Source: Hormiphora californensis
Lineage: Eukaryota; Animalia; Ctenophora
DNA length: 64,000 nucleotides
Assembly (NCBI GenBank): GCA_020137815.1
Contig: CM035358.1
Location: 434,001 to 498,000 of the forward strand
Reading direction: 5' to 3'
Part shown: positions 1 to 46,287 of the stretch, one piece after another
Position numbering within the stretch: the first letter of the stretch is position 1
How the letters are laid out: each line of letters opens with the position of its first letter
The notes under the pieces: model-generated
Database searches by the model: none
What the model saw: the letters and a program-made list of their open reading frames with translations, nothing else
Told to the model about the DNA's origin: nothing
Program-made: the position numbers and the translations under genes

Positions 1-122
1 GATCTTTTCTAAGAATCAGACTCTTGCAAATTACACTAGAATTTGATAACTTTTTTCTGACCTAAGATATTGAGACCTAATATGATTGGATGGAAACACT
101 GTTGAATCCTAAACATCTTATA

Positions 123-191
123 CAGTCGGACCCCAATTTCCCAGCGCAAAACCCTTTCCCCCGAGCATCCTGGTAAATGGAGGTCTGACTG
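123..191. mobile_element. Internally deleted Tc1/mariner-pogo-type MITE (CAGTCGGACC family)
   Basis: TA|CAGTCGGACCCC...GGTCTGACTG|TA. Same ends and internal AAAACCCTTTCCCCCGAGCATCC as the copy at 46116-46287. Confidence 0.8.
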
Positions 192-217
192 TACTATAAC
201 AGCGGTTGATTGCTTAC

Positions 218-322
218 CGTTGCATTGAGACCAGCACGCGTCTTTGTAACATCCATAGGTGCAGGCTGTCGCTCCGTCACACGGGAACTCAGATGGGGCC
301 CAGGCACACTCCCAGAGAGATT
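218..322 (-). CDS. Internal exon of a Cys-rich protein (SLWECAWAPSEFPCDGATACTYGCYKDACWSQCN); gene continues off the left edge
   Basis: On the minus strand: acceptor CTCTTTCTTCCTAG, 105-nt open phase-1/phase-1 exon, donor GTAAGC; six Cys. Confidence 0.65.
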
Positions 323-584
323 CTAGGAAGAAAGAGTGGGGTAAGTGGGCTCCCAGAGAGAGATTCTAGGAAGAAAGAGTGGGGTTAGTGGGCTCCCAGA
401 GTGAGATTCTAGGAAGAAAGAGTGGGGTTAGTGGGCTCCCAGAGTGAGATTCTAGGAAGAAAGAGTGGGGTTAGTGGGCTCCCAGAGTGAGATTCTAGGA
501 AGAAAGAGTGGGGTTAGTGGGCTCCCAGAGTGAGATTCTAGGAAGAAAGAGTGGGGTTAGTGGGCTCCCAGAGTGAGATTCTAG
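309..584. repeat. 43-bp tandem repeat, ~6.5 copies, duplicating a splice acceptor
   Basis: Unit CTCCCAGAGTGAGATTCTAGGAAGAAAGAGTGGGGTTAGTGGG starts at 309, 350, 393, 436, 479, 522 and ~565. Confidence 0.95.
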
Positions 585-1270
585 CGAAAGTAGTTACAAT
601 GCAGGAGGCTTCCAGGTAGGAGTCTGATCCCAGGGAGATTCAAAGGAAGGGGTCAGAACAAAAGGTGGTGAGATGGACATGGGGGGGTTCCCATGGTATA
701 CTTTGGTATACTTTGGCACTTTCCACAACTTTTTCAGCGATTTTCCATATACCAAAGTATACCAAAGTATACCAAAATATACCAAGGTATACCAAAGTAT
801 ACCATAAAATTTTGAAATAGGTAAAATTTAAGCGATAAGATAAAATAATTGACTAAATTTGTAAAACTACATCCTTATTTCGTTCTAAATTGGTAATATA
901 AAGCTTATTAAACTGATTTTTACGTATGTTACATCACCCGGCTAGTGCTCAAGGCTGGCCACTCAGTGGCCAGGGGTTCAATTCCCGGTTGAGGCAATTT
1001 TTGAAAATATTTTAGAGACTTTACCAAATACTTTTTCTTGACTTTTAAAAACGTTTTTTATCGCACTCAAATGAGTCCCAATGTGTCAAACCCCAGTTTT
1101 GTGACTCATCATTTCACAGGCAAAATAAGTTTCCTCGATTCTATGAAATTAGCCAATTTAGCCTAGTTAACCTCAAGTTTATGAGTTAAGAAAGTTTATA
1201 CAAACTGTTTTAAAGCCTTAATTATTGTAAATTAACACTTTAAAGTACGTAAAGCTATTAAAAAGATATG

Positions 1271-4200
1271 GGTAATATACCAATTCTTGGTGTTCGAAGA
1301 AAATAGCGCTAATTAGCGGTTTTAATAGCGCTAATTAGCGCTAATTAGCGCTAATTAGCGATAGCGCTATTTATCGATAGCGCTAATAGCGCTAATAATA
1401 GCGCTATTTCACAAAATAGCGCTATTTTTGACCGCTAATTAGCGCTAATTAGCGATCAAAAATAGCGGTAATTAGCGGTAGCGCTATTTTAGCGCTTTTT
1501 GTAACCGCTAATCGGGCAATTTATCTAAAAAAATAGCGCTATTAACACTTACAAAAATAGCGCTAATTAGCGCTAATTAGCGCTATTAACATTCTTAATT
1601 CATTTTGTTCGAACCGCTAATTAGCGCTATTTCCAATTTCATCAAAATATAGAAAACGCTATGATTGGATAATGTATGTCACGTGACAAAAATCCTGTCA
1701 TGTGATGAAAAATAGCGCTAATTAGCGCTATTTTTATAATCGCTAATTAGCGCTATTATCAACTTAAACGTTTATTATTTTGTTAATAGCGCTAGTTAGC
1801 GCTAATTAGCGCTATTAATATTTGCAAATAGCGCTAATTAGCGCTAATTAGCGCTAATAAGCGCTAACTAGCGCTATTTGCATATTATTAATAGCGCTAA
1901 TTAGCGCTAATTAGCGCTATTATCAACTTGAACGTTTACTATTTTGTTAATAGCGCTAATTAGCGCTAATTAGCGCTATTAATGTTATGCAAATAGCGCT
2001 AGTTAGCGCTTATTAGCGCTAATTAGCGCTAATTAGCGCTATTTGGAAAATATTAATAGCGCTAATTAGCGCTAATTAGCGCTATTATCAACTTAAACAG
2101 TGATTATTTTAATAATAACGCTAATAAGCGCTATTATCAACTTAAACGTTTATTATTTTATTAATAGCGCTAATTAGCGCTAATTAGCGCTATTAATATT
2201 TTGCAAGTAGCGCTTGTTAGCGCTTGTTAGCGCTAATAAGCGCTAATTAGCGCTATTTGGAAAATATTAATAGCGCTTATTAGCGCTAATTAGCACTATT
2301 ATCAACTTAAACGTTTATTATTTTATTAATAGCGCTAATAAGCGCTAATTAGCGCTATTAATATTTTGCAAATAGTGCAAGTTAGCGCTTATTAGCGCTA
2401 ACTAGCGCTAATTAGCGCTATTTGGAAAATATTAATAGCGCTAATTAAAGCTAATTAGCGCTATTATCAACTTAAACATTGATTATTTTATTAATAGCGC
2501 TAATAAGCGCTATTAATATTTTGCTAATAAGCGCTAATTAGCGCTATTTGCATATTATAAATAGCGCTAATTAGCGCTTATTAGCGATATTATCAACTTA
2601 AACATTTACTATTTTATTAATAGCGCTAATTAGCGCTATTTGGAAAATATTAATAGCGTTTATTAGCGCTAATTAGCACTATTATCAACTTAAACGTTTA
2701 TTATTTTATTAATAGCGCTAATAAGCGCTAATTAGCGCTATTAATATTTTGCAAATAGTGCTAGTTAGCGCTTATTATAATAAGCTATAGCGCTAATAAG
2801 CGCTAATTAGCGCTATTTGGAAAATATTAATAGCGCTAATTAGCGCTTATTAGCGCTATTAATAAAATAATAAACGTTTAAGTTGATAATAGCACTAATT
2901 AGCGCTAATTAGCGCTATTAATATTTTGCAAATAGCGCTAATTAGCGCTAATTAGCGCTAATTAGCGCTTATTGGCGCTATTTTTAAAATATTAATAGCG
3001 CTAATTAGCGCTTATTAGCGCTATTAATAAAATAGTTAACGTTTAAGTTGATAATAGCGCTAATTAGCGCTAATTAGCGATATTAATATTTTGCAAATAG
3101 CGCTAATTAGCGCTAATAAGTGCTAACTAGCGCTATTTTTAAAATATTAATAGCGCTAATTAGCGCTAAATAGCGCTATTAATAATATGGAAATAGCGCT
3201 AACTAGCGCTATTTGCAAAATATTAATAGCGCTATTTAGCGCTTATTAGCGCTATTAATAAAATAGTAAACGTTGAAGTTGATAATAGCGCTAATTAGCG
3301 CTAATTAGCGCTATTAATATTTTGCAAATAGCGCTGATTAGCGCTTATTAGCGCTTATAAGTGCTAACTAGCGCTATTTTTAAAATATTAATAGCGCTAA
3401 TTAGCGCTTATTGGCGCTATTAATAAAATAGTAAACGTTTAAGTTGGTAATAGCGCTAATTAGCGCTAATTAGCGCTATTAATAATATGGAAATAGCGCT
3501 AATTAGCGCTTATTAGCGCTAATTAGCGCTAACTAGCGCTATTAGCAAAATATTAATAGCGCTAATTAGCGCTTATTAGCGCTATTAATAAAATAGTAAA
3601 CGTTTAAGTTGATAATAGCGCTAATTAGCGCTAAATAGCGCTATTAATAATATGGAAATAGCGCTTATTAGCGCTTATTAGCGCTAATTAGCGCTAACTA
3701 GCGCTATTTGCAAAATATTAATAGCGCTATTTAGCGCTTATTAGCGCTATTAATAAAATAGTTAACGTTTAAGTTGATAATAGCGCTAATTAGCGCTAAT
3801 TAGCGCTATTAATATTTTGCAAATAGCGCTAATTAGCGCTTATTAGCGCTAATAAGCGCTAACTAGCGCTATTTTTAAAATATTAATAGCGCTAATTAGC
3901 GCTTATTAGCGCTATTAATAAAATAGTTAACGTTTAAGTTGATAATAGCGCTAATTAGCGCTAATTAGCGCTATTAATAATATGGAAATAGCGCTAATTA
4001 GCGCTTATTAGCGCTTATTAGCGCTAACTAGCGCTATTAGCAAAATATTAATAGCGCTAATTAGCGCTTATTAGCGCTATTAATAAAATAGTAAACGTTT
4101 AAGTTGATAATAGCGCTAATTAGCGCTAAATAGCGCTATTAATAATATGGAAATAGCGCTTATTAGCGCTTATTAGCGCTAATTAGCGCTAACTAGCGCT

Positions 4201-5684
4201 ATTAGCAAAATATTAATAGCGCTAATTAGCGCTTATTAGCGCTATTAATAAAATAGTAAACGTTTAAGTTGATAATAGCGCTAATTAGCGCTAATTAGCG
4301 ATATTAATATTTTGCAAATAGCGCTAATTAGCGCTTATTAGCGCTAATAAGTGCTAACTAGCGCTATTTTTAAAATATTAATAGCGCTAATTAGCGCTTA
4401 TTAGCACTATTAATAAAATAGTAAACGTTTAAGTTGATAATAGCGCTAATTAGCGCTAATTAGCGCTATTAATAATATGGAAATAGCGCTAATTAGCGCT
4501 TATTAGCGCTAATTAGCGCTAACTAGCGCTATTAGCAAAATATTAATAGCGCTAATTAGCGCTTATTAGCGCTATTAATAAAATAGTTATCGTTTAAGTT
4601 GATAATAGCACTAATTAGCGCTAATTAGCGCTATTAATATTTTGCAAATAGCGCTAATTAGCGCTATTTTTAAATTGTCTATGGCGCTGATCAGCGCTAT
4701 TAACAAAATATACATTCATTATTTTGTTAAATGCGCTAAATAGCGCTAATTAGCGCTATTAACATTTTGCAAATAGCGCTAGTTAGCGCTTATTAGCGCT
4801 AATAAGCGCTAATCAGCGCTATTTGCAAAATATTAATAGCGCTAATTAGCGCTTATTAGCGCTATTATCAACTTAAACGTTAACTATTCTATTAATAGCG
4901 CTAATAAGCGCTAATTAGCGCTATTAATATTTTGCAAATAGCGCTAACTAGCGCTAATTATCGCTAATAAGCGCTAACTAGCGCTATTTGCAAATTATTA
5001 ATAGCGCTTATTAGCGCTAATTAGCGCTATTAACAAAGTAATATACATATATTGTGTTAATAGCGCTAATTAGCGCTATTTACAAATTGTTGATAGCGCT
5101 AATTAGCGCTAATTAGCGCTATTTAGCGCTTATTAGCGCTAGTTAGCGGTATTTTCATATTGTTAATAGCGCTAATTAGCGCTAATTAGCGCTATTTTGT
5201 AAATAAAAATAGCTAATCTTTAAGAAATGGCGCTAATTAGCGGTTACAGATTTTGACCAATCATAAGGATTTATTTAATCACGTGATCAACGCCAACCAA
5301 TCATGGCTTAGATACGTCAAATAGCGATGTCTCTTAAATAGCGCTATTTCAAAATTTTTAGGACCGCTATTTGAATAGCGGTGTTATCAAATTTGAAATT
5401 AATACAAAATTTAGAACCGCTATTTTTCTACAAAAATAGCGCTATTTTTAAGTGCAAAAAGCGCTAAAATAGCGCTACCGCTAATTACCGCTATTTGTGA
5501 CCGCTAATTAGCGCTAATTAGCGGTCACAAATAGCGCTATTTTATAAAATAGCGCTATTATTAGCGCTTCTAACACTTTTTATAAATATCGAAATCTTAG
5601 ATAGCGCTAATTAGCGCTAATTAGCGCTCTTAAAATCGCTAATTAGCGCTATTTTCTTCGAACACCAAGAATTGGTATATTACC
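1271..5684. mobile_element. Nested non-autonomous Merlin-like foldback element filled with satellite
   Basis: TIR GGTAATATACCAATTCTTGGTGTTCGAAGAAAATAGCGC... perfect for >45 bp and imperfect for several hundred. 8-bp TSD AAGATATG (1263-1270 and 5685-5692). GG termini plus 8-bp TSD fit Merlin. Confidence 0.85.
1303..5652. repeat. Palindromic TAGCGCTAAT 10-bp satellite with 165-bp higher-order unit
   Basis: Hundreds of TAGCGCTA palindromes. Marker CGTTTAAGTTG recurs at 3271, 3436, 3601, 3766, 3931, 4096, 4261, 4426 and 4591 (exact 165-bp period) and is inverted at ~1750-2700 and ~4865. Confidence 0.95.
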
Positions 5685-6118
5685 AAGATATGGTATACTT
5701 TGGTATACTTTGGTACCTTCCACATATTTTTTTAGTATTTTCCATATGCCAAAGTATACCAAAGTATACCAAAGTATACCATGGGAACCCCCCCGATGGA
5801 CATACACAATGCAGAGCGAGACAGAAAAGGTCATTCATAGAACATGGGGCATAAAGTAACTTTTGAATTGAAAATGGTAAGTTAGGGCAGTCGAGAAATC
5901 ATGGCTGAGAAAATATATTATATTTGGAGATGAATGAAAATCTCAAAGCACTTGTATCTTGTATGAAGTTATCCCAATTCCCAATTTCGAAATCCACCCG
6001 AGAGCGAATAAATTGTTTTTCATGAGCGTTTACACATGTGCAAAGTGGATTAGCTTCAGTTTTGCATGCCCTCTCAGTGAATCAGGTCCACCCTAGTATA
6101 CAATTTATAATATACCAT

Positions 6119-8257
6119 CACTGCGCTGGCAAGCGCAAAGGTTGCCATTCCCCCTCCCCCCAAAAGCGCCGCCAGAAACGCAGTTATACGTTTTATGGGT
6201 GTTTTGCCTGAAAACCTAGATTTCAGAAGGTTATAGCGTGGCTCTCTTTCATCCGTTTGACTTGAAATTTGGAATGTATACCCAGCTTGCTGCTTAGGGT
6301 CTTTGATTCAAGTTTAAAATTTCAAGTCTCTATCTCATCTGGAACCGAAGTTACAGACAGGTCCCATTTGCCCTAGTCATCACTGCGCTGGCAAGCGCAA
6401 AGGTTGTCATTCCCCCCCCCCCCCCCCCCTCAAAAAGCGCCGCCAGAAACGCAGTTATACGTTTTATGGGTGTTTGGCTGAAAATCCAGATTTGAGAAGG
6501 CTATAGCGTGGCTCCCTTTCATCCGTTTGACTTGAAATTTGGAACTTATACCCGGCTCCGGGTCATTGACTCAAGTTTAAAATTTCAAGTTTCTATCTCA
6601 TCTGGAAGCGAAGTTACAGACACGCGCGGGTAGGAGAGACGCTTTTTGTAAACCATATTCACGCCAAACGAAAAGAGATAGAGACTTCATCTTTTCACAG
6701 CTGGTAGATCTACTGGATGTGTGTGCATTAGTCGTAGTGGGGTCCCTTTTCATCGCCAGGAACGTCCTACAGAACGTCTTAAAGTCGTCATTTTTCAGAC
6801 TCTAACCAAAATTCTTTGAGCTCAATTTACACCCTGAAGACGGATTCTAATCGAAAATCGAAGACTATATCATGGAAAGAGAATTGTCTGAACTTTCAGA
6901 AGCTATACAGTGAATTTTGAAAACCAGACGTATAAGGGTCTTAAAACGCGTCTAAAGTGTTATGACTGTTTAAAAACAGATATGATGTTATGGGTTTTCT
7001 CGCTATAGCGGACTCAAATCTCATCCAATCGATCTCAAACTTGGTCAGTATCTTCATCTAGGTGGGCCCGATAATATGACGTCATAATTTTGACGTTACA
7101 ACGTCGTGACGTCATTTTATGACGTCAAAATGACGTCAAAAATGAAAATTTCTCAATTTCACGACTCTAACCTCTCTGTACCTATTCTACTAAATCTACA
7201 TGGATAAAAAATCCCAAAAATGATGCAAATTATACCAAAACTAATTAAAATTAGTAGGCCGGAAAGGTTGCCTTACGATTTGAGCTACCTTTGGCACTGG
7301 TACACTGGTACTGAAGATAACCGAGGCATCTGTAACCTGTCTATACCCCGTGAAAGTTACGGTGCCTAAGGTAGCTCAAATCGTAAGGCAACCTTTCCGG
7401 CCTACTAATTTTAATTAGTTTTGGTATAATTCAGTGTAACACATATGTGCGCATGTACGCGCGTAGGAGAGACGCTTTTTATAAACCATATTCACGCCAA
7501 ACGAAAAGAGATAGAAACTTCTCGTTTTCACAGCTGGTAGATCTACTGGATGTGTGTGCATTAGTCGATGTGAGGTCCCTTTTCATCGCCAGGAACGTCC
7601 TACAGAACGTCTTAAAGTCGTCATTTTTCAGACTCTGACTAAAATTCTTTGAGCTCATTTTACACCCTGAAGACGGATTCTAATCAAAAATCGAAGACTA
7701 TACAATAGAAAGAGAATTGTCTGAACTTTCAGAAACTATATAGCGAATTTTCAAAACTAGACGTATAAGGGTCTTAAAACGCGTCTAAAGTGTTATGACT
7801 GTTTAAAAATAGATATGACGATATGGGTTTTTTCGCCATAGCGGACTCAAATCTCATCCAATCGATCTCAAACTTGGCCAGTATCTTCATCTAGGTAATC
7901 TCGATGATATGACGTCATCATTATGACGTCATAACGACGTGACGTCATTTTATGACGTCAAAATGAAAATTTTGCAAATTGGTGATTCCATCCTCTCCTT
8001 ACCTGTTCTACTACATCTAAATGGATAAAAAATCCCAAAAAAGAAGCAAATTATACCAAAACTAATTGAAATTAGTAGGCCGGAAAGGTTGCCCTATGAT
8101 TTGAGCTACCTTTGGCACCAGTACATTCCCTTTTGAAGATAGAAGAAGCATCGGTTATACCCTGTCTGTACCCCGTGAATGTTACGGTGGCAAAGGTAGC
8201 TCAAATCATAGGGCAACCTTTCCGGCCTACTAATTTCAATTAGTTTTGGTATAATTT
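6119..8257 (+). mobile_element. Unclassified composite repeat, A-A'-B-B', each B ending in a ~200-bp hairpin
   Basis: A at 6119-6360 and 6381-6620 (CACTGCGCTGGCAAGCGCAAAGG...). B at ~6620-7431 and ~7458-8257. Hairpins at 7228-7431 and 8048-8257. Confidence 0.75.
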
Positions 8258-8296
8258 AAGTATACTATCTTGCACGTTCCAGAATATTAAAGCGAG

Positions 8297-8330
8297 AGTG
8301 GACCGACACAGAATTCTGTGTCGGTCCACT
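8297..8330. repeat. Perfect 34-bp palindrome flanked by TTAAAG...CTTTAA
   Basis: AGTGGACCGACACAGAA|TTCTGTGTCGGTCCACT. Confidence 0.9.
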
Positions 8331-8813
8331 TTAAATTGTTGGTTCCGTAATACCCCGTTGATACTTCCACTCGCATAGCAGAATAATTATGTTTTCTCTT
8401 TCCTAAAGTAAATTCGTGTCTTCCCTATTTCCCTCACTCTCTCTCACTCTCTTAATTCTTCTTTTGTTTGCTTAAGGTCATAAGGAACCTCCCATATTAT
8501 TCCAGAGTTATTCAGGGTGTTTTCATTTCTAGTTCGACCCTGCCTCCCCGCCGGAATTCTACCCACGAACACTGCCTATATAAACATATAATATCGCATA
8601 TTATATGCCTTGCTGTATTAAGTTGTGTTAATAGATCTTCCCACCCTCCGTTATAGGATATTCCCCATTAGGTTACCACTCCGGTTAACGGGATTAAAAT
8701 GCCAACATTCCTAAGTATATACCTAACTCTCGACCCAACAAGCACACCTACCGGGTAGGCCTCCACCTCCCCGGGTGCAGCTCTCTTTGATTTAAAATTT
8801 AAAGCTGAATTTT

Positions 8814-8848
8814 GTTGCCATGGCAACTGAAGCGGTAACTATGGAGAC
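8814..8848. promoter_or_regulatory. RFX X-box pair within a dispersed repeat
   Basis: Perfect GTTGCCATGGCAAC followed by GTAACTATGGAGAC. Homologous inverted copy at ~54740-54808. Confidence 0.5.
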
Positions 8849-10364
8849 TGAATTGTTAAAACTTATTTGAAACTATTCACAACCTTCCAGAAGAGTGCTT
8901 TACTTGTTTGGGCGCATATTTGTTGATGAAGGATCACTGTTCCTTACCAAACGTATCGTACGTGTTCAGAAATGCCAGCCAAACGTGATTGACAGCGAAC
9001 CGTTACCATGGAAGAAACATGGCCAATAAAGGAAACTGACTGGAATCGCATATAGCAGTAAAAAATGAGCCCAGCTAGGTTGTTATACCGCCGATATCGA
9101 ACCTCAGGAGAACCTCACTCAAAACACAGCAGCTGTTTGATCGTGTGGACACGTAGCACTATATGATAATATATATACCGCGAGTGCACATATCACTCCC
9201 GCTGTGCGCGACCATATGCACGGTGAAATTTGCACTGTGCTTCCGCGGGAGCGTGCAGATATAGAGGTAGCGGGATATAATTAAGAAAAGTGTTCTCGCA
9301 GTGTTTTTACACCTTATTCACACACAAACACACAAAATATGACTGACAAGGTACAACACGACACACAGTCTGCCATTTTACACTCACTCTCCCTCTTTCT
9401 CTTTCTAATTATCCCCTTATCACGTTTTGTTGTTTGCTATTTCCAAGAATTCCAATCTCCCTCTCTCGTATCTCTCTCATTATCTCTCTCTTCTTTTCAC
9501 TGTTAAAACTGTCAAAACTTGGTCCCCTTGTGTGTAAAAGGTGTAGTAGTGTATTTTTGTGTAGTTTTGCTTAGTTTGTACCTTGTTTTGTCACATCTCT
9601 CTGTGTGTAATCACCCAAAATTGTGATTGTTTTGCTTGTCATGTGTTTTCTCGCGGAATATATACTCAATAACGTCCTGCACTAGATCAGGGAGCTCCAT
9701 TATGAAAAATAACTGCAGGTGCATTGAATAGTCATTGCACCCTCCATTAGCCATTGTAAATAGATCTATGTGGAAGTAGTGAAGACTGTGTTGACCAACA
9801 GCTGTTGTACTTAAGACATGCTGCATAGAGGCTCGTGCATTTTTCTAGTGTGCGTTAAACTCGAACTATTTCTCCGCTATCACTCTTGGAGAGGTAGGGG
9901 ACTGGGTCTTTATAAACCATTTTAGAGCTTTCTTCGACATGCTCTAGTTTAGAGGTTCTACATCTATTTAAACTCTATTTAATGAAAAATTGACTGTGCT
10001 CCAATTTCTAGGAAAAAGTTCGGATATAAGAACCAGACTATGTCTATTTCATTCCCCGGCCCCCGCTACGCAAGCCTATTCCGTGGGAAGCTATAACGGA
10101 CCGGCGTACGTTCGCCAACCGATTCAATATTTCGTGCAAGCCGAGCTAGACTGAAATTCAGTATACTTTAGCCCGACTATAACGCTCTCTCCCTGTTTAA
10201 AGTAACAAACTCTCTCTCTCAGATGTGTCATCCCACCATTAGACACTTCCTAGATCATCTGTATATCTCGAGATGAAGGACCTGAAGAAACGCAGTAGTT
10301 GCGGATGGGATGAGACAGTGAGAGTGCTGTATAAGCCCGACAACCCAGAAGAGAGAACATAATA

Positions 10365-10386
10365 CTCTCTCTCTCACTCTCTCTCA

Positions 10387-10449
<63 letters not shown>
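10365..10449. repeat. (CT)n microsatellite
   Basis: Seen directly. Confidence 0.95.
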
Positions 10450-11252
10450 CGTTTTTTCTTCGGGTGTGATGGCCACTATTGCGTGGGGTGAGGAGAGTGT
10501 GAGCCCAGGATGGTTCCCTTGCAATATACCGCAAGTAGCAAGATACAATATTGTCGAACACTGTGCTAGTTGCTAGTAGTTTTCCGTGTCATCCACACAT
10601 TATATATTTAGGAGACAGGAGTTTGACCACGTTACTGTTTAGAGTTTGTGAAGATTTGCCTTTCATGAGAGGGACTTGGTCCCGGACTAGATATAGGGTA
10701 CGGTACAACTTTTTACATCAAGAGTCGTTTCTACTTTAAGATAAATATAATAGCCCCGCGTTTACTGAGTTAAAATTATTTCTGAGATGATCGTCTCATC
10801 TAAAACGGAGACTTCGTTGAAACGTGCACATGAAATGGTGCATCCCAGAATCCACATTAACCCGTTTTACTCTTTAACAATATATCTTTTCACGGTTGTT
10901 TGACAGTGGGTATGTTGATGCAGTCTGCGTGGGTGAGATCAGTTCGTGTATTGAGGGGGCTGGGTCCTTTGTTCGGAATGATTATCACGTTATCATCTCT
11001 ACTGCAATGCTCTCTTAGTTGAGCAATGAGGCATTTTATAATATTAATATCTGGTGCCAAATGTTAGACTAAAGAACGCAGCTAGTGTGTTGCGCAACAT
11101 TCCACGACCATACAAGTTAAGATGTCTGCAGCGTTGCGGGCAAATGAGGTATAGCTCACTCTTGATAATGTCCACTTTCATTTGGTTAGTGAGGCTTTTA
11201 GCTAGTTAATGATAAGGTCGAACTCTGGTGTGCACGGCCTTTATTGCTATCA

Positions 11253-11336
11253 CAGTCGGACCCTGATTTACCGGAACCCCGATATACCGGGCAAAATGGC
11301 TTCCCCCGAGGATCCCGGTAAATCGGAGTCCCACTG
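11253..11336. mobile_element. CAGTCGGACC-family MITE, short diverged copy
   Basis: CAGTCGGACCCTGATTTACCGG...CCGGTAAATCGGAGTCCCACTG|TA. Confidence 0.8.
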
Positions 11337-11911
11337 TAAGTGTACTTGTTGAGTAAGGACCCCACCCCTTACTCAACGAGCTATTAACAAATTTGAATGA
11401 TTTATTCAAGATGCATATTATTAGCCTTGCTACGAAAGAACCTATAAGGGGGGATACTTCCGTGATTGAAGGGCCTTAGGTCCTGTTATAGAGATGTTAC
11501 CCCTACAATTAGTCATATATTAATTAATAATATCTAGAGTAAATGGAAAAATATAAAACTTTGACAAATGTTAGCATAAGGACGTGTCACTGTCCGAAAT
11601 ACTTTACTTGAAATTGAATTGTGACCAGTGACCACTCTCTGCTGGCAGTAGAGCACATGAGAAGTGGCCAGTGCCTGGTAACTTGAAAATGGTATAGTTA
11701 CCTGTCAGACAGACGAGAGTAAGAAGTAGAACACACAACTTGAACATGATCACTGCGAATTGAGAACTGACACCTCCCTCCTCCTCCTTGTCGTCAAGAG
11801 GCTCTTGACAAATCAGTTTAACAAGTTAGACGTGCTAAGTTTGTGGCACACATTGCACCTGTAAATGGCGTTGTTAGAGACACATGGTGGACCAGATGGC
11901 ATTACTTATGT

Positions 11912-13230
11912 CGCCACCCCTCCCCAAACGATATCTAACTATCAGCCCGCCACCCCCAAACAATATCTATACTATCAGCCCGCCACCCCCAACAATATCT
12001 AACTATCAGCCCGCCACCCCCAACAATATCTAACTATCAGCCCGCCACCCCCAAACAATATCTAACTATCACCCCCCCCCCCAACAATATCTAACTATCA
12101 GCCCGCCACCCCCAACAATGTCTAACTATCAGCCCGCCACCCCCAAAATATCTAACTATCAGCCCGCCACCCCCCAACAATATCTAACTATCAGCCCGCC
12201 ACCCCCAAACAATATCTAACTATCAGCCCGCCACCCCCAAACAATATCTAACTATCAGCCCGCCACCCCCCAACAATATCTAACTATCAGCCCGCCACCC
12301 CCAAACAATATCTAACTATCAGCCCGCCACCCCAAACAATATCTAACTATCAGCCCGCCACCCCAAACGATATCTAACTATCAGCCCGCCACCCCCAACA
12401 ATATCTAACTATCAGCCCGCCACCCCCAACAATATCTAACTATCAGCCCGCCACCCCCAACAATATCTAACTATCAGCCCGCCCCCCCCAAACAATATCA
12501 TAACTGTACAGTCCCCGCCACCCCCAACAATATCCTACACTATCAGCCGCCCCCCCCCCAACAGATATCTAACTATCACAGCCCCGCCCCCCCCACCGCT
12601 CTCTAACATATATAAAACCTCTCCCGCCCGCCACCCCCAACAATATCTAACCACTATCATGCTCCGCCCCCCCAAACAATATCTAACATTCATCATCCCG
12701 CCACCCCCAAACGAATATCTAACTATCAGCCCGCCACCCAACGATATCTAACTATCAGCCCGCCACCCTCCAAACAATATCTAACTATCAGCCCTGCACC
12801 CACCCCCAACAGATATCTAACTATCAGACCCGCCCACCCCCAAACAATATCTAACTTATCAGCCCGCCACCCCCAACAATATCTAACTATCAGCCCGCCA
12901 CCCCCAACAATTCTACTACAGCCCCCCCCCCAACGATATCTAACTACAGCCCGCCCCCCCCCCAAACATATCTAACTACGCCCACCCCCCCCAACAATAT
13001 CAATTTATACCCCCCCCCCAAAAAATTTAACATCACCCCCCCCCACCCCCAAACAATATCAACATCCCCCCCCCCCCCCCAACAATATCTAACATCAGCC
13101 CCCCACCCCCCCAAACAATATCTAACTATCCCCCGCCCCACCCCCAAAAATACAACTATCACCCCGCCCCCCCCCAAACAATATCTAACTATCAGCCCCC
13201 CCCCCAAAAAATATCAACATCGCCCCCACC
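11912..13230. repeat. ~31-bp minisatellite (AACAATATCTAACTATCAGCCCGCCACCCCC), ~40 copies
   Basis: Tandem units, clean to ~12480 and then progressively error-laden. Opposite strand is G-rich. Confidence 0.95.
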
Positions 13231-16200
13231 CTATGCCGGGGGGGGGGGGGGTGCCGAAATAAAACTATCATAAGTCTCTTCTGGCGGGGCGCCTGGCGTA
13301 CTCGAGTTTGGGCTTTTCCAAATGATCAGGTCCAGGCACTCAGAATAGGGGACCGCTTTTAGGGTCGTCCTACATGTCCCCCCCCCCCCTTTTAAATGCC
13401 CCCCTGTTTTTTGGAAAACATCTCGCTTTTTATAAGGGCATGCTGACAAAGGAAGCGAAAAGAGGGGAAAAAGGGGTAGAGAGAAGAAAAAAAAGAGATA
13501 GATAAATGAGAGAGAGAGAAAAGAAGGGAGGAGAAGGAAAAAGGGAAGAAGGGAACCCCAACTCTAAAGAGGGGAGGTTCTTCCTGTTTGGTTCCGTGCT
13601 TTCTTCTATCGTCCCCTTATATTTCCTCTCTCGGTAAACTTTTTTTTTATTTTACCGAAAAATTATCTTTTTCCCTTGTTTAGCATTTCTACCAGTGCCC
13701 AACTTCATAGTAGTACAGTGAGGTTTCTGCATCGAAGTGGTAGTGCCGCTTCCTTTCATAACATGGGGTTTGGCTATAATTTCTTACCGGTCAGTTTGGA
13801 CCAAGGATATAATGAAAATTTTAAAAAAAAAACATAGGTGCTCGAATTTCTAAACTCTTTTTTTTACAAATCTTTACAAAGTTTGTCGTCGCGGGGCGTG
13901 GTTAGAGAAGGCCCCCAGTGTTTTTTGGGGGGCCGGGACTGTGACGTTAATTTTCATATTTTTAAAAAGTCTTCCATTTTCAAAAGGGGCTGTCTAAAAT
14001 CAAATGGCACAAAGGGGGGGGGGGGCTTCAGAAGTGTACCAATTTGTTTCTTAATAAGTAGAATTATGTAAATTGTAAATTGAGGCACGACCACGGATTG
14101 AGTGATGATACCCCAAAAAGGGCATGGGCTTTAAAAAGGGGGGAATAAGGAAAAATACTAAAGAAAGGGAAAAAAAAAGGGAGAAAGAAAGAAAGGAAGA
14201 AAGAGAAAGAAGAGAAGAAGAAAACCCCATATGATTTGATGCCTACATATATTAACAAAAAATTGTATGCCCCCCCCCCTAAATTTGGTCTTTTTTCAAT
14301 AAATTGGAAATCGTTATTCAGAAAATTTAAAAGAAATTGTATTAAAAAATACAGATATTTTTGAAGGTTTGGCCAGACAGCGGCCACTGCTAACAAACTC
14401 CCTAATAAAAGGGGATAATTATCGATAATCAAACAAATGTTTTTACTTTGCTAAGTTCCAGCCCCAAAAAAAATTTTAAATTTAAAAACTTAAAAAAACA
14501 TCTGGTATGACTGGCACAACGTCTACTATAAAACCCTTTACATACTGTACCCCATCTCTCTCCTATCTATCTCTGTGTCCCCTGTTATACAGTCCCCAAA
14601 ATTACAATTGAGCTAGGCTTTTACTCGAAAAAACCACCAGTGCTGAGCTTAACAGGGGAAAACTTTTAGTTTCCCGTCACCTGCACCCCCAACGGGACCT
14701 TTGTTTCCCCCCCTCTATCCTCTCTATAATATTGAGGCCCCCCCCTTTTTTTTTCTCTCTCCTTCTCTCCCCTCTCCCCTTTTAATTAGCCTCCTATTTT
14801 ATCCATCAGTTTTGCAAGTTTTTGGGTTTTTTTTTTTATTTTTATTTAGTTTATGACCTCTTTTTAAACTTTTAAATTTACTGTTTGTAAAATGTTACCT
14901 ATATCAAATTTCAAAATTTTTTTTTTGTACCTCACTTGTTCATAATTAAAAAAATGAATTTAGCACTGCTAAATTTTGTTTTCTATAAGAAGGGAGAGAA
15001 AAAGAGGAGAGAGGAGAGAGAGAAAGAAGAAAAAAGGAAGAATTCTTCCTTTCTTTTCCCCCATTCTCTTCCCCCAAAATTTTTTTCCCCCCGCTCCCTC
15101 TCCCCCCTCTGTCCCCGCCTTTCCCCTTTTTTCCCCCCCTTTTTGTTCCCCAATCATTTTCCCCCTTTTCTCCCCCAACCCCCCTTTTGTCATTTCCAAA
15201 ATATATACGTAAAAACCTGGGGTTTAATCCATCCGTTGGGAAAAGGGAGGAAAAGGGGGGTTTTTGGGGGGGGGGGGGTCCCCTCTCCGGCCCTCCCCTT
15301 CCCCCTTTTCCCTTTTTCCCCCTTTTCTTTTTGCCCCCTTTTTCCCCCCCCTATTTAAAATTTTTTTTAAACTCCCCTTTTTCTCCAAACCCCTTGGTTT
15401 AGAAGGGTAACAAACAAAAAAAGGGGGAAAATTCACATGTAAGGGGTAAAAGGTCCTAGTTATTACTGTGTCACTGACTTTTTTTTCCGCGGAGACCTGC
15501 TCGTTCGTTCCGAATTTTTTTCTTTAAAAATGCTGTATTTTTTTTTGAGTTGCCATTTTTAATTTTTCAAAAACTGCCAGTTGGGTTTTTAAACCTTTTA
15601 AAACTTGGGATAAAAATTTTTTTTTTAAAAAAAACCCACTATTAAGTTGATTAAAAATTTTCAAATTAGTCAACTGGGGTAAAATGGTTCCCCCTCCCGG
15701 GGGAAAAAGGTTCACCCTGGACCAATAAAAAACAGCCTCCCAATAACCCCCAAAAAAAAACTTTTAAATGGGCCAGCCCACGGGGTAAAAAAGGTCCCAG
15801 AAAAAGAAAAAACATGGAAACCCTTTTACCCCTGCTCTAACAACCCACACGTAAAAAATCGACATGCTAATTGGGGTGGACCATTTTACCCCGGGGGGCA
15901 AAATTTTCCCCCAAAAAACCCTACCCCCCTTTTTGTTTTATTTTAACTATTAAATAAAAATTTCAGATTTTTAAAAAAATTCTCGTCTGAAAAAAAAATT
16001 TTTTGGGTCCTATTAATTTTTTCTTCTTCTTATAAATTATTTTTTTAAAAACCCAAAAAGTTAGAAAGTGTGCCATTTTACCCCTTTCTACCCTATGAAG
16101 AAAAAAAAAAGATACAAGAAGGTCAAGGGGTTTCGGCCAAAAGAGAGGAGAACAGAGACAGAGAGAGAGAAAGGGAAAAGAGAAAAAAGAAGAAAGAGAA

Positions 16201-18371: not shown

Positions 18372-20395
18372 TAAGTGGAGCCGAACAAAGCAACCCATAC
18401 TCCAAAAATGCCCGAGAAAAAAAAAATCCAAGAAAAAATGATAGTCTAAAGGGGTTTTGAAATGGAAAAATTGGCTGTCAGTATGACGGAACGGGGTTTT
18501 TGGAAAACCAGTGGGTTCACAAAAAAATACCGGATAAAACCCCCCCAAATCAAAAAGGGAGACAATTAAACAATTTTGTGCCCGTTTTAGGATTAGAAAA
18601 AACAAAAAAAACTGTAAAAAATTGATACTCGTTTTTACATGTGTGACAACACATATATCCAACTTTGAGAACTTGAGGGACGGTCTCCCCAACACGGTTA
18701 AAAAATGACATTCCTGTTAGCAGGATTTTAAAAACGGGTTTTTTGGGCGGTTGAAACACAAAATGTGAAACAACAATTGAGTTTTTAAAAGCAGTCATCA
18801 AAGAGAGCATTACCCGTTTGTGCAAAATGAGGAAAAGGAAAGATTGTCTTATGGAAAATGAAGGATGCGGAGACTTTGCACCCTTTTGTACTATTTGAGA
18901 TTTTTGGAGAAATGGGATTTTAAACAAAAATGAATGAAGCACCCACTGAATCCTATGAGGGAAAGGGGTGAGAAGGCACGAAATTGGAGACTGAAACAAC
19001 CGATAAACGGTGAAACCTTTATGACGTCCTACAAGCAGGAGAGGCACGGGGATAGTTTCTGAAGGTCCCCGGTCGGGGAGGGCAGTGAGAGAAACGGGAA
19101 AACAGGGGGGGGGGAAAGGGAAAGTCGCAGCAGAAGAGGGTCGCCCCCAAACATGGAAAAAAGATAGGACCGGGGGACCAACCACCGTAACAGGAGCGCG
19201 GCGATACAATCCGAAGAGATTCTACACCACACCGACGGAAAAAAGGAAAGGTCGGAAATCAGATAGGTGCTACAAGCGGGAAGAGGGGGGGTACATGGCC
19301 AGAAAAAGCTACTCGAATAGGCGGAACCATTTAAAATAGTGGGGTGCACCAAAGGTTTTTTTGCGGATTTGAAAGGGAACCAAAAGGGGAGGAAAAAAAT
19401 GATGTGACAGGACATTTAAAAACACCATTTAAATTTTTTGGACACGGGCTGGGATCTCTCATCAGTACACGCACTGTCTACCAACGGGGAAAAAAGCAAA
19501 ATTTGCCCCAGAAACAATAATTTGGGGGTTACAAAAACAAAATCTTTGCCAAAAGGGAGATTCTTAAAAAAGCTTTTAGCAAAAACGGAAAATACGCAAC
19601 GTTTTTGTCAGGAAACCTGGCTGAGACATCCTAGCGGGAAGACTGAGGGAAATTGATATGAGAATTGATGTGAAAGAAAACAAAAAACTTTACCAATACG
19701 GGGGGAAAAATTGGCAAGGAACTTTCCCTTTGCCCTTTCCACAAATTGCAAAATCAAAGGTAAGAGAACGAAAAATTCCCGGAAACAGCGTCACACAATA
19801 TCAGCGAGTGAAATCCTAAATCTGGAAAAAATATGAAGGGGTATTTTTTGGAAAAAGGGAATAACAAATCTTGGGGGGTTTGGCATTGAAAATTCTAGGC
19901 GCATAGCAAGGGTAATGAGATACTGGTTTGGTACAATCCTTCCCAACGTCAAACATGCACAGAAATAGGGTCATTGGCAACATGGCCATGGGTTCGTTTC
20001 AGACAAAATGTTTTAAAAAAATCAAAGAGTTTTCTTTAAAAATTTCCCGATTACCCGAAGCTGAACTGAAAGGTGACACGCAAATAGGGACAAATGGGGG
20101 AATTTGAAAAATGTTCGATCAGCTTGGCTGAAAACACTCCAAATTGATTAAGAACACAAAAAACCCAAAATTAAAAAACATTCTAAAAACTATTCCCTTT
20201 TTTTTCAAAACACCAATTTTTAAATAGGAAAGCCCCTTTTTTGAGGCATCCTTTAAAATCAAGACAGATGTAGAAGGGGAACCCGTAGGGAAGTTCCATA
20301 TGATCAAAAAACGTAGGAAAAAAGAGCTATGACATTGGCAAGTTGGACAAATTGAAGATTTCAAAAGGGCCAGGGATCGGAACCCCTCCGGTCTT

Positions 20396-21514
20396 TTGGT
20401 GAAAAAGCCAGGAACGAAAAAATACCGAGTTGTGCAAGACCTGAGACAGCTCAACAAAGAGAGCATCCCCGAAACATTCCCATTACCAAATATAAACACG
20501 GTGATGAACAACATGGATGAATGTGAGTGGCTAACCTCATTTGACTTCACAAAAGGTTTCAATCAGATAAAACTTGACGAGGAAAGCAAACCACTAACAG
20601 CTTTCACTTATAAAAACACTCGCTATCAATGGACGAGGCTCATTATGGGTCACTGTTCTAGCAGTAGTATATTTGCCAAATCTATGGCAGAATTGTTCCA
20701 AAAAGTTCCTTTCCAAGCGCTAATTTGCTTCTTGGATGATGTGCTAATAGGAAGCAACACTGTTGATACACATCTAGACAGGCTGGAATTCGTTTTAGCA
20801 AGACTGTCATTTGGAGGATTGAAAATTAGTCCTTCTAAAACACAATTGTTCAGAAAACAAGTCAAATTTCTCGGACACATCATGAACAAAAATGGCATTT
20901 CTATTGATCCAGCTCGTGTGGATGCAATAAAGAAACTACAATTGCCAAAGTCTGTGAAAGAACTACAAAAATTTCTGGGAGCTGTAAATTATAACAGAGC
21001 CTATATAAAAGATTACAGCAAAATAGCAACCCCACTATACGACATGCTACAGAAGAAACGCAAATTTGAGTGGAATTCTACTTCCACAAAAGCATTTGAA
21101 AATTTGAAAAATGCACTTGGAAAAACACCGGTCTTGGTGATTCCAAACTACCAGCACCCTGACCAAAATTATGAGTTGACAATTGACTCCAGTAAAATCG
21201 GCCATGGGGCCACACTAAACCAAGTATTACATGGGAAAAAGAGGACCATAGCCTATTGGTCAAAATCGGTACCTGTGCATCAGAGAAAATTTGGGGCAAC
21301 TAGACTAGAATTTCTTGGTCTATGTCATGCTCTAAAGCACTTCCGGATGTACCTGATGGGTACAAAAAGGTTCAAGGTGCTAACTGATTGTAAAGCTCTG
21401 CTAAACTTGAAAACCATTTTCAAGAAAAGAGTGCTACATTCACAGAAAAAAGCGAATTGGAAGAATACAATTTTAAACATAAGCACATTGCTGGGAATTG
21501 TAACATGGGTATGA
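20396..21514 (+). CDS. pol: Gypsy pol fragment: reverse transcriptase and RNase H
   Basis: YRVVQDLRQLN, FPLPNI, DFTKGFNQI, FLDDVLI, FLGH, LTIDSS, LEFLGL, FKVLTDCKAL motifs. Confidence 0.95.
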   Translation: MVKKPGTKKYRVVQDLRQLNKESIPETFPLPNINTVMNNMDECEWLTSFDFTKGFNQIKLDEESKPLTAFTYKNTRYQWTRLIMGHCSSSSIFAKSMAELFQKVPFQALICFLDDVLIGSNTVDTHLDRLEFVLARLSFGGLKISPSKTQLFRKQVKFLGHIMNKNGISIDPARVDAIKKLQLPKSVKELQKFLGAVNYNRAYIKDYSKIATPLYDMLQKKRKFEWNSTSTKAFENLKNALGKTPVLVIPNYQHPDQNYELTIDSSKIGHGATLNQVLHGKKRTIAYWSKSVPVHQRKFGATRLEFLGLCHALKHFRMYLMGTKRFKVLTDCKALLNLKTIFKKRVLHSQKKANWKNTILNISTLLGIVTWV

Positions 21515-35579: not shown

Positions 35580-37023
35580 TCAAACATTAAGTTTCGGTGC
35601 CTCTACCTCCAGATGTTCCCTATACTTCTCCAGAGCAGGTCTCAACTCCTCCTTCACAAACTTTTCAACTTGTTCCGGGCACCGTCCTATAAACTTACTG
35701 GGATCCAAAATGTCATCCAAACTCTCCTTCACAGGGGCGAAGAACTCGTCTCTAGATACTCGCTCTATCATATCATTAACCCCACCCTCCTCCTTCACAT
35801 TCTTCCCTGCTTCCTGAGCCAGCACTCTCAATCTCTCGTGACACTCTTGTCTGTCAGCCCCAGATTTAACCATCGCCATCAGGATATTCTCTGTGGCCAT
35901 GAAGGGGAGCTCTTCAGAGATCCGTTTAGCAATAACACGAGGGTAGACCACCATCCCACTAACAATGTTTAGAGTGGTGTTGAGCAGGATATCAGCTGTT
36001 AGGAAGGCCTCTGCAATCACCACACGCCTGTTGGCTGAATCGTCCAGGGTTCGTTCGAACCATTGGTTAGCGTGAGTGTGAGCAGCAGAGAGAGGCAAGG
36101 AGAGGAGGTGCCGAGCTAAGGAGCAGCACCTCTCAGATCTCATCGGGTTTCGTTTGTAAGGCATTGCACTGCTACCAATCTGGTTCTTTTCAAATGGTTC
36201 CTCTAGCTCTTTTAGACTGGCTAACAGTCTCAAATCGGTGCAGAACTTATTGACTGAGGTTCCAATACCAGCAACAGCATTCAGGATCATTGCATCAATT
36301 TTCCGGGAGTAAGTTTGGCCGGTAATGGTGAATTTCGAGGAAAACCCAGCTTTCTCGGAAACCAGTTTGTCTAAATCCTCTACCTTGTCATGTTCTCCAT
36401 TGAAGAGCTCCAGAAAACTGGCCTGGGTTCCAGTTGTACCCTTCACGCCCCTGAACCTCATTCCCTCAATCTCACGTTCCAGTGCTGCGAGGTCCAATAA
36501 GAAATCTTGAGCCCAGATACAAGAACGCTTGCCAACTGTTGTGATTTGAGCCGGCTGGAAGTGAGTGAAACCAAGTTGAGGGATTGACTTGTTGGAGACT
36601 GCGAAACTGGCGAATGCATTACAAACCCTAGCTAACTTTGAGCACAGCAACTTCAATCCATCTCTCATCACAATAAGATCAGTGTTGTCCCCAACAAAGC
36701 AGCTGGTAGCCCCTAGATGTATAATTGGAGCTGCAGACTGGACATGCTGCTCCAAAAGTGTGCACGTGGGCCATGACATCATGACGACGAGATTTCTCCT
36801 CAGCGGCAGCTCGAGCCCAGTCAATATTAGATATATTTTCTCGCATTTCTGATATCTGCTCTTTTGTGATTTCTAGACCAAGTTCCATTTCCGATTCTGC
36901 AAGGTCAGCCCAGAGTTTTCGCCAAGTCTCGAACTTCTTCCGATCGGAAAAGATGTAACTCATCTCCTCCGACGCATAGCGATCAGTCAGAGGGCTACGG
37001 TACTTTGATTGGGGTTCTGCCAT
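35580..37023 (-). CDS. ADSL: Adenylosuccinate lyase, intronless, one apparent frameshift near 36740
   Basis: [71 protein letters not shown]. Two overlapping ORFs join at ...ACP/SAAPIIH. Confidence 0.95.
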
Positions 37024-37115
37024 TACACTAGGGTCAAGCTGAAGGTGAAAAAGAGGAAAAGATGGCAAGCGGAGTGGAGAAATCTGAAAATCGCGGCGAA
37101 AAACGGAAAAAAAAC

Positions 37116-38460
37116 TTGGCATACGTTGCAGGCCCCTTATAATATAATATAAGGGGCCTGGAGGGAATACCGCGCTAGGGGGGAATACATAATCAATCAT
37201 ATCTCCAGTTCCAGATAAGGTACAGAAATCGTTTTGGTAGCGTTGGAAAGAGGAAGATAACAGCTTTCAAATGCAACCGGTTTCAGGTTTCTATCTTATC
37301 AGGAACAGGAGATATGAACCAAACTCCGCAAAATCGAGTGCGGTAAAATCAAAATTTGAATGAAATTTTAAAAAAGGTGTCCCTGCAAGAATCTGTGACG
37401 TCACTTTTTGAAAACAACCCATCTTTCAACGGCTATTGCTCAGCCTTCTTAAGTCCAATTAACTTCTCTCAAAAACAGCAAGGTAGATAATCGTCAGATC
37501 TAACAACTGGTGAAAGAATCAAGTCAAACGGACTTCAGGAGCCAAAGTTATAAGCACCGCCGTTTTTTCGACCGCAAAGTTATCTTCGACCCAGCCGGGA
37601 TCAGGCCAAACGCGCGCGCGGCATTCCCTCCAGTCCCCTCGTTGCGGGGGTGCGCGCATGAGGGGGCTGCAGCGCATTCCAAAAAAAAAACTGAACTTTT
37701 TGAGCTGAATTTTTGTTTCAATCCCTTAAAATTAACTAGCGCGCATTTATACCGTTGCATGAGATGGAAGGCGCGAAACATACACGCATAATGCGCTGCA
37801 TTTTCACGCGCAATAACGAATTGGATTTTGAAATTCCCAAAATTCTTAGTGGAAGCTCTTACGGTAATTCCCACGCCCCGTGGGAAAGTTTTTGACCGTG
37901 GGAAAGTTTTCAAACCGTGGGAAAAGAGAGATTCATACGATAACTTTAAAAAAATAATTATTTTTTTAATGTTATAGTCGAATTTTTTAATCAAGGGACA
38001 GGGGGCCGCGCATTTACAAAGTCTTTTTTGCGCGTGCTAAATGTTTTTGCTCATATCTCCTCTTCCTGATATAATAAGATAAAGACTTGATCTTGGTTGC
38101 GTTGAAAAGGTCTTAAAATTATCTTTCCAACGCTTCCGGGTTCAAGTCTTAAGATTGCCAGGAACTTGATCTCGATTGTCACGCGCAAATACAACGCCGC
38201 GCGACCTCTCTGAATGCGCGGCCCCTGTCCCTTGATTAAAAAATTCGACTTTATTGTATATATCTCTCTTTTCCCACGGTTCGAAAATTTTCCCACGGTC
38301 AAAAACTTTCCCACGGGGCGTGGAAATACCGTAAGAGCTTCCACTATCTGGGATTTCAAAGTTTGAGATTTTTGCCAAAAACGGAAAACCGCAAAATATT
38401 GGAGAAAAGGGGTCATTGTTGCGGGCTGCGGCTGAACCACCAAGCCAGCATAAGGCATAA
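37116..38460. mobile_element. Composite non-autonomous DNA-transposon-like region with internal inverted repeat
   Basis: Arms ~37830-38013 and ~38213-38360 are inverted. Segments are shared with 45484-45730 and 63300-63480 (AAAATGCACGCG, CACGCGCAAATACAACGCCGCG, AAGGGGCCTGCARCGTATGCCAA). Confidence 0.65.
37868..38315. promoter_or_regulatory. Cluster of seven CGTGGGAA (CSL/Su(H)/RBPJ consensus) sites
   Basis: 37868(-), 37879, 37897, 37916, 38271(-), 38290(-), 38308(-). Function unproven. Confidence 0.45.
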
Positions 38461-46115: not shown

Positions 46116-46287
46116 CAGTCGGACCCCGATTTACCGGGCCCCGATTTACCGGAACCCCGATTTACCGGGAGCATAATCTTCCCCCAAAATAGGAAATTAA
46201 CAGTATTTGACCCCGATATACCGGGCACCCCGATTTACCGGGCAAAACCCTTTCCCCCGAGCATCCCGGTAAATCGGGGTCCGACTG
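46116..46287. mobile_element. Full-length Tc1/mariner-pogo-type MITE (172 bp)
   Basis: TIR CAGTCGGACCCCGATTTACCGGG / CCCGGTAAATCGGGGTCCGACTG, TA TSD, internal repeats of CCCGATTTACCGG. Confidence 0.9.

What the first reader, a model, noticed from the sequence alone, without database searches (positions are those of the whole stretch)
681..5794. Russian-doll pair of foldback transposons, both built from 10-bp palindromic units
Seen: the outer element has a 9-bp TSD (GATGGACAT) and self-folding TIRs of GGTATACTTT units. A second element with an 8-bp TSD (AAGATATG) and GGTAA termini sits immediately beside the outer right TIR and is built from another 10-bp palindromic unit (TAGCGCTAAT). Both TSDs are intact, so both insertions look recent. 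Known: 9-bp TSDs typify Mutator/Foldback, and GG ends with 8-bp TSDs typify Merlin. Inferred: a mobile satellite-carrier system, possibly with the inner element targeting the outer one, all inside a probable intron.
Basis: partly seen in the sequence, partly recalled or inferred. Interest (0 to 1): 0.8.

Follow-up and report, generated by a model that had tools for sequence, protein, structure and literature searches.

The report
Nested foldback transposons in comb jelly
In a comb jelly genome a 4.4-kb non-coding jumping element filled with a self-mirroring repeat sits inside a smaller 0.7-kb one; each also occurs without the other elsewhere, so the nesting is likely a chance insertion of a known kind rather than a dedicated targeting system.

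Summary
The anatomy is real. The outer element (681-5794; 692 bp without the insert) has a 36-bp perfect TIR and a 9-bp TSD. The inner element (1271-5684) has a 48-bp perfect TIR, an 8-bp TSD and a 165-bp higher-order array of a 10-mer. The window is from a Pleurobrachia ctenophore. Mobility is supported: contigs of runs X4 and X1 show the empty site with one copy of the 9-mer, X1 also holds the filled junction, and both elements' ends run into unrelated flanks. Obligate targeting is refuted: inner ends have many non-outer flanks, and 4 of 6 laid runs list outer copies without the insert (X1 and X4 list neither form; tables were cut). Only the inner array is truly palindromic. Neither element codes for protein, so the superfamily is open; an 8-bp TSD with GG ends fits animal MULE foldbacks as well as Merlin. 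Repeat-carrying Merlin and foldback elements seeding satellites are already in print. 'Intron' is unsupported. Verdict: two apparently undescribed non-autonomous families of a known kind, nested probably by chance. A shared 8-bp end motif leaves a small chance of soft targeting. The scan's earlier notes held nothing similar.

The parts
672..680 (.). Left copy of the outer 9-bp target site duplication
   Evidence: empty allele with a single copy in X4 and X1 contigs
681..716 (+). Outer left perfect TIR (36 bp; G7-TTCCCAT then 10-bp units)
693..805 (.). Outer left hairpin module: two GGTATACTTT units opposed to five reverse units
806..1262 (.). Outer non-coding interior; 935-984 is shared with a more abundant repeat in organism A and largely uncovered in organism B
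   Evidence: depth table; longest stop-free frame of the 692-bp element 57 codons
1263..1270 (.). Left copy of the inner 8-bp target site duplication
   Evidence: single copy in outer elements lacking the insert
1271..1318 (+). Inner left perfect TIR (48 bp), beginning with an imperfect 11-bp palindrome
1271..1756 (+). Inner left subterminal domain of scattered 10-mers, 72% alike (368 of 511 columns) to the reverse complement of the right domain; holds CCAAT-like and CACGTG words at 1661-1687
1756..2785 (+). 165-bp higher-order array, block 1 (8 spacers in one orientation, several truncated units)
2786..4680 (-). 165-bp higher-order array, block 2 (11 spacers in the opposite orientation; the seven units 3420-4574 are 93-99% alike); symmetry centre at 2785
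4681..5194 (+). Array block 3 (orientation switches back; two near-symmetric spacers); boundaries approximate
5195..5684 (-). Inner right subterminal domain, with CCAAT-like and CACGTG words at 5257-5304
5637..5684 (-). Inner right perfect TIR (48 bp)
5685..5692 (.). Right copy of the inner 8-bp target site duplication
5693..5794 (-). Outer right hairpin module, ending in the 36-bp TIR (5759-5794)
5795..5803 (.). Right copy of the outer 9-bp target site duplication
   Evidence: filled junction contig 5768-5824 in X1

Best explanation
Two separate non-coding, multi-copy elements with inverted ends and target site duplications are nested at a site that is empty in other copies of the chromosome; each is likely moved by cut-and-paste by a transposase encoded elsewhere, and the nesting is likely a chance hit. 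Shown: ends, TSDs, lack of coding capacity, empty alleles, other flanks, outer copies without the insert. Inferred by analogy with Aedes Muta1: a DDE transposase supplied in trans binds the 10-bp subterminal units (about one helical turn apart), cuts at the terminal motif and makes a staggered cut of 9 bp (outer) or 8 bp (inner) in the target. Inferred: the inner 10-mer was amplified into a 165-bp unit and then into a kilobase array by slippage or unequal exchange, with orientation switches made easy because runs of the 10-mer read the same on both strands. My estimate for superfamily: outer MULE/foldback about 0.65, Merlin 0.25; inner MULE/foldback about 0.5, Merlin 0.4. Whether the inner element entered the outer one before or after it reached this site is not resolved.
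For: Empty site: one 419-bp X4 contig (depth 215) joins 585-680 directly to 5804 onward; X1 holds an empty-allele contig (depth 112) and a 57-bp filled-junction contig 5768-5824 (depth 96, no mismatch; 27 letters inside the element and 30 outside, under the tool's 31-letter bridging bar); X14 (organism B) has a diverged empty site. Other flanks of the outer end: 4 contigs in X1, 1 in X9, 2 in X14 before 681. Other flanks of the inner end: 3 (X1) and 4 (X14) contigs; 5 (X1) and 5 (X4), one flank shared by X1 and X4. Outer without inner: X9, X14 (contig depths 511-601 against about 25-60 on the flank), X7, X8. Summed depth rises from 112 and 215 on the flank to thousands in the outer interior and tens of thousands on both TIRs. 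Longest stop-free frames 57 and 42 codons. Subterminal repeats bind transposase and raise excision in Muta1 (PMC5499845 passages).
Against: No transposase with either TIR was found, so the enzyme and superfamily are inferred. TSDs of other copies could not be paired. The tables were cut (116 and 26 loose ends, 1756 and 643 pieces not shown), so further composite copies in X1 or X4 are not excluded. The inner terminal cap shares the 8-mer TATACCAA with the outer unit (P about 0.012 by shuffle, 31 of 5288 window 33-mers; noticed after the fact) and the insertion abuts that unit, which is a little more than chance predicts. This outer copy differs from nearly all assembled depth at 818, 1117 and 5734, so it is not a brand-new copy of the commonest form, or the window has errors there. 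X1 may be the window's own source and is then not independent.
Confidence: 0.75

Rival explanations
1. Soft targeting: the inner element inserts widely but is biased towards outer-family ends, because the two share a binding word and one or two related transposases tether the inner element there.
For: Shared 8-mer between the inner cap and the outer unit; insertion exactly at the edge of the unit block; both families are only tens to hundreds of copies by summed depth, so a chance hit for this one pair is not very likely.
Against: All listed inner flanks other than the window's are non-outer sequence, and 4 of 6 runs list outer copies without the insert; composite junctions would not show as loose ends, however, so they were not counted. 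The motif match is post hoc, the two TSD lengths differ, and a genome with many element families will hold some nested pairs.
Confidence: 0.12
2. The 5.1-kb composite formed elsewhere and moved here as one unit on the outer ends, so the outer family acts as a carrier of the inner satellite. This is compatible with a chance origin of the nesting and concerns the order of events.
For: Both outer ends are intact despite the insert; the site is polymorphic, which leaves limited time for two separate hits.
Against: No contig bridging the inner-outer junction is among the listed pieces of any of the 6 runs, including X4, which lacks this insertion (tables cut). Flank alleles differ by 2 of 96 and 1 of 196 letters, so polymorphic need not mean very recent.
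Confidence: 0.2
3. Obligate targeting: the inner element needs the outer one as its landing site.
For: Only the single nested copy in the window.
Against: Inner ends continue into unrelated flanks in X1, X4 and X14.
Confidence: 0.02
4. The length and the orientation switches of the inner array are partly assembly errors, while the ends are real.
Against: Units carry regular diagnostic differences, with a 495-bp three-unit period, which collapse or noise would not readily create.
Confidence: 0.1

Closest known systems
Muta1 and relatives, Aedes aegypti MULEs of foldback type 2 (PMC5225508, PMC5499845; passages read)
   Same: 8-9 bp TSDs, G-rich end with an imperfect terminal palindrome, 9-15 bp subterminal tandem repeats, non-autonomous derivatives with unequal ends
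   Different: No transposase known for these elements; the inner one is almost wholly repeat; the outer one has a hairpin module at each end rather than one direct run
Merlin elements with internal tandem repeats, e.g. Merlin-N5_DR, Sy.k_F2 (PMC8101967; passages and S1 Table part 1 of 2 read)
   Same: GG ends, 8-9 bp TSD; Merlin-N5_DR is non-coding, about 4.3 kb by its repeat coordinates, with 10-bp repeats at both ends and 113-bp arrays; Sy.k_F2 has a 163-bp tandem unit; spread of proto-satellites is proposed there; P. bachei has 4 preserved Merlin ORFs
   Different: No DDE_Tnp_IS1595 ORF here and no link shown between these TIRs and a Pleurobrachia Merlin
Tetris, Drosophila virilis foldback (PMC4079207; passages read)
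   Same: Non-autonomous, modular long TIRs, 8-10 bp TSDs, internal tandem repeats that expand to satellite-like arrays, superfamily left open for lack of a transposase
   Different: Here the unit is a higher-order 165-bp repeat built of a strand-symmetric 10-mer; no free satellite array was tested
Tm1, root-knot nematode Mutator/Foldback (PMC3169594; passages read)
   Same: 9-bp TSD, composite TIRs with variable numbers of a short unit, MITE-like members, empty sites, no target consensus
   Different: Tm1 has asymmetric terminal motifs and a known Phantom-like transposase

Membership tests
Non-autonomous TIR (class II) transposon | Terminal inverted repeats | tested here: met
   36 bp and 48 bp perfect
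Non-autonomous TIR (class II) transposon | Target site duplication, single copy at the empty site | tested here: met
   Outer: X4 and X1 empty alleles. Inner: outer copies without insert in X7, X8, X9, X14
Non-autonomous TIR (class II) transposon | Dispersed copies with different flanks | tested here: met
   Loose ends at both termini; TSDs of those copies not paired
Non-autonomous TIR (class II) transposon | No transposase ORF | tested here: met
   Longest stop-free frames 57 and 42 codons
Foldback (structural class) | Long modular TIRs with internal tandem repeats | tested here: met
   Inner: about 490-bp domains, 72% alike, plus inverted array blocks. Outer: about 100-bp repeat modules at each end, short for the class
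MULE / Mutator superfamily | 8-10 bp TSD | tested here: met
   9 and 8 bp; range from PMC5225508
MULE / Mutator superfamily | TIR typically over 100 bp, often with 9-15 bp subterminal repeats | tested here: met
   Met for the inner element; borderline for the outer
MULE / Mutator superfamily | MULE DDE transposase between the same TIRs in an autonomous partner | not testable with these tools
   No genome held; TIR scans of metagenome and viral contigs found 0. Mutator-derived FLYWCH genes are expanded in Pleurobrachia, which shows only that the superfamily has been present
Merlin superfamily | Terminal GG and 8-9 bp TSD | tested here: met
   Both elements; definition from PMC8101967; not diagnostic against MULE
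Merlin superfamily | TIR 24-462 bp | tested here: met
   Perfect parts 36 and 48 bp; the inner imperfect domain is about 490 bp, and Repbase Merlins reach 1000 bp
Merlin superfamily | DDE_Tnp_IS1595 transposase between the same TIRs | tested here: inconclusive
   0 hits for five motifs in the paper's S2 Appendix, but each of the 11 P. bachei contig records is held only for its first 400 or so letters
Target-specific (nesting) transposon | Copies found only or mostly in the host element | tested here: not met
   Unrelated flanks in X1, X4, X14; outer copies without insert in four runs; a weak bias is untested

The most novel reading that the evidence does not exclude
The two families share a transposase-binding word (TATACCAA), the inner element is steered to the repeat block of outer-family ends, and the resulting composite moves as one unit, spreading a strand-symmetric 165-bp satellite through Pleurobrachia genomes: a transposon that piggybacks on another's ends.
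Probability: 0.08. Interest if true: 0.6.

Novelty: new member of a known kind. Interest (0 to 1): 0.3.

Why it matters
As it stands: two apparently undescribed, recently mobile foldback-type families in a ctenophore, a 5-kb presence/absence polymorphism, and a clean example of a higher-order satellite growing from putative transposase-binding 10-mers inside a transposon. That extends a pattern known from flies, fish and dinoflagellates to a little-studied animal lineage but does not change it. It would matter more if a genome-wide count showed insertion bias through a shared end motif, or if the array proved to be the seed of free satellite blocks.

Tried and rejected
Exact TIR scans found 0 matches in metagenome contigs and viral contigs; these collections are not expected to hold this animal. 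No RNA holder listed. Target-site preference from loose ends that extend 2-5 letters past the TIR (5686, 5688, 1266, 5798) was rejected: mixed consensus rows and probable alignment run-on. Summed depth was not turned into copy numbers beyond 'tens to hundreds'. Intron test: 44 of the 67 stop-free frames of 45 aa or more in 1-11900 were scanned (mostly those of 50 aa or more); 0 passed a Pfam cut-off, 2 had sub-threshold hits; the empty allele shows no long frame across the site and organism B has indels there. The B-box-like stretch at about 950-990 is not a tRNA: ARAGORN 0, no tRNA among 129 Rfam matches, all below gathering score, folding z -0.7. The Pleurobrachia genome paper was not held under the id tried, so its repeat supplement was not seen; Repbase and Dfam are not searchable here and may already list these families. 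Paper searches showed no description of these elements. Earlier scan notes: nothing relevant (one unrelated palindrome note).
Full report
Observation. The window shows an outer element from 681 to 5794 between two copies of GATGGACAT, and an inner element from 1271 to 5684 between two copies of AAGATATG; each word occurs only at these two places. The perfect TIRs are 36 and 48 bp. An exact 9-mer or 8-mer at a fixed end has a chance of about 4e-6 or 3e-5. Without the insert the outer element is 692 bp; neither element has a stop-free frame above 57 codons. Each outer end is a hairpin of opposed 10-bp blocks (z -11.4 and -8.4).

Inner anatomy. 250 cores of TAGCGCTA (177 exact, the rest one mismatch) lie in the element, 154 of 249 intervals being 10 bp. 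Two subterminal domains of about 490 bp are 72% alike as inverted repeats and both keep a CCAAT-like and a CACGTG word about 400 bp from the end. Between them a 165-bp unit (runs of 3, 5 and 3 cores with spacers of 15, 15 and 31 bp) is repeated. The 31-bp spacer points forward 8 times, backward 11 times, then forward once, with a symmetry centre at 2785; the seven units 3420-4574 are 93-99% alike and a 495-bp period is detected. This reads as recent tandem growth of the right arm (inference).

Organism. The adenylosuccinate lyase frame at 35583-36752 is 98% identical to a protein recorded as Pleurobrachia bachei and 73% to Mnemiopsis leidyi. The window is from a Pleurobrachia ctenophore. No genome is held.

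Mobility. 22 runs were listed; 6 were laid, all as contigs. In X4 one 419-bp contig (depth 215) carries 585-680 and continues straight into the right flank: the site is empty and has one copy of the 9-mer. X1 has the same empty allele (depth 112) and a 57-bp contig across the filled right junction (depth 96), so it looks heterozygous and may be the window's source. X14, of a second organism, has a diverged empty site. X7 and X8 do not cover the flank; X9 covers it in part with no verdict. Outer ends run into other flanks in X1 (4 contigs), X9 (1) and X14 (2). Summed depth climbs from 112 and 215 on the flank to thousands inside and above 40,000 on the TIRs in X1 and X4; the tool warns that this is no copy number, so I read it only as multi-copy. 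One X4 contig joins the outer right units to a different interior, which suggests sister subfamilies.

Targeting. Inner ends run into unrelated sequence in 3 (X1) and 4 (X14) contigs (X1; X4); one flank is shared by X1 and X4. Outer copies without the insert are listed in X9 and X14 (depth 511-601 against about 25-60 on the flank) and in X7 and X8, whose letters at 1237 and 1240 match the window's type. No contig bridging inner and outer is listed in any run, but 1756 and 643 pieces were not shown, and X1 and X4 list neither form. Obligate targeting is therefore refuted and a weak bias is untested. Against pure chance: the inner cap shares TATACCAA with the outer unit (P about 0.012 by shuffling; 31 of 5288 background 33-mers), a post hoc match.

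Mechanism. The best reading is two non-autonomous cut-and-paste elements moved in trans. In Aedes Muta1, subterminal repeats bind transposase, are needed for cleavage and raise excision, and the end is an imperfect palindrome (PMC5499845, passages). The inner end here is an 11-bp imperfect palindrome (4 of 5 pairs), the outer a weaker one (3 of 6 pairs over 12 bp). That the 10-mers are binding sites, and that strand symmetry of the inner 10-mer eases orientation switches, are inferences. The order of the two insertions relative to arrival at this site is open.

Comparison. Merlin has GG ends and 8-9 bp TSDs, often carries tandem repeats, has been proposed to spread proto-satellites, and has 4 preserved ORFs in P. 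bachei (PMC8101967, passages; S1 Table part 1 of 2). Aedes MULEs have 8-9 bp TSDs and 10 of 12 long-TIR families have 9-15 bp subterminal repeats (PMC5225508, passages). Tetris is a non-autonomous foldback with 8-10 bp TSDs whose internal repeats seeded a satellite (PMC4079207, passages). Tm1 is a Mutator/Foldback family with 9-bp TSDs, and that paper notes that foldback structure arose in several superfamilies (PMC3169594, passages). So TSD length and GG ends do not separate Merlin from MULE. A search of the Merlin paper's S2 Appendix for five motifs gave 0, but the contigs are cut after about 400 letters. In that visible part two P. bachei contigs show, 14 bp before a Merlin ORF, the end of a hairpin element of 10-bp units with the same terminal 11 bp as the outer element: a likely sister family, seen by eye. 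Feschotte 2004 was not read; the Pleurobrachia genome paper and its supplement were not seen.

Context. No frame scanned in 1-11900 passed a Pfam cut-off (44 of 67 frames); the neighbourhood is repeats and the window begins 680 bp upstream. The intron claim can be neither supported nor excluded.

Verdict. Real, mobile and polymorphic; new members of a known kind; nesting most likely incidental (0.75). No description of these elements appeared in seven paper searches, but repeat databases could not be searched. Interest 0.3; 0.6 if motif-guided piggybacking (probability about 0.08) were shown.

Noticed in passing
window 51274-52094: 821-bp element with 333-bp TIRs 98.5% alike, TAG...CTA ends and ACA on both sides (possible 3-bp TSD); Academ-like by recall only.
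   Followed up: partly
window 6116-8330: A 250-bp and an 810-bp tandem duplication; each long unit ends in a 205-bp palindrome that starts with the same TATACCAA word; a perfect 34-bp palindrome follows at 8297-8330. Unclassified.
   Followed up: no
window 935-984: Stretch in the outer interior with a B-box-like word (motif recalled), far deeper than the rest of the interior in X1 and X4 and mostly uncovered in X9 and X14; not a tRNA by ARAGORN or Rfam. Possibly a captured piece of an abundant SINE-like repeat.
   Followed up: partly
window 1661-1687 and 5257-5304: CCAAT-like and CACGTG words kept in both otherwise diverged inner subterminal domains; could be promoter remnants of an autonomous parent.
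   Followed up: no
PMC8101967 S2 Appendix, contigs AVPN01020316.1 and AVPN01013591.1: End of a hairpin element with the outer element's terminal 11 bp but another 10-bp unit, just upstream of a Merlin ORF that looks shortened at its start (by eye).
   Followed up: no
window 37827-38360: About 530-bp imperfect palindrome (67%) just upstream of the adenylosuccinate lyase gene.
   Followed up: no
window 130-193, 11259-11338, 46209-46289: Three copies of a short internally repeated MITE-like family, 85-88% alike.
   Followed up: no
window 35580-37266 (-): Adenylosuccinate lyase read in two overlapping frames: short intron or sequencing slip.
   Followed up: partly
window 20333-21514 (+): Reverse transcriptase and RNase H domains of an LTR retrotransposon, in a stretch of noisy-looking sequence.
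   Followed up: no
window 39399-39911 (+): 170-aa frame that looks by eye like a hAT transposase fragment; no Pfam match.
   Followed up: no
window 309-584, 11922-13231, 55788-57702: Strand-skewed minisatellites of 43, 31 and 33 bp; the last lies between frames that look like integrin alpha exons (by eye).
   Followed up: no
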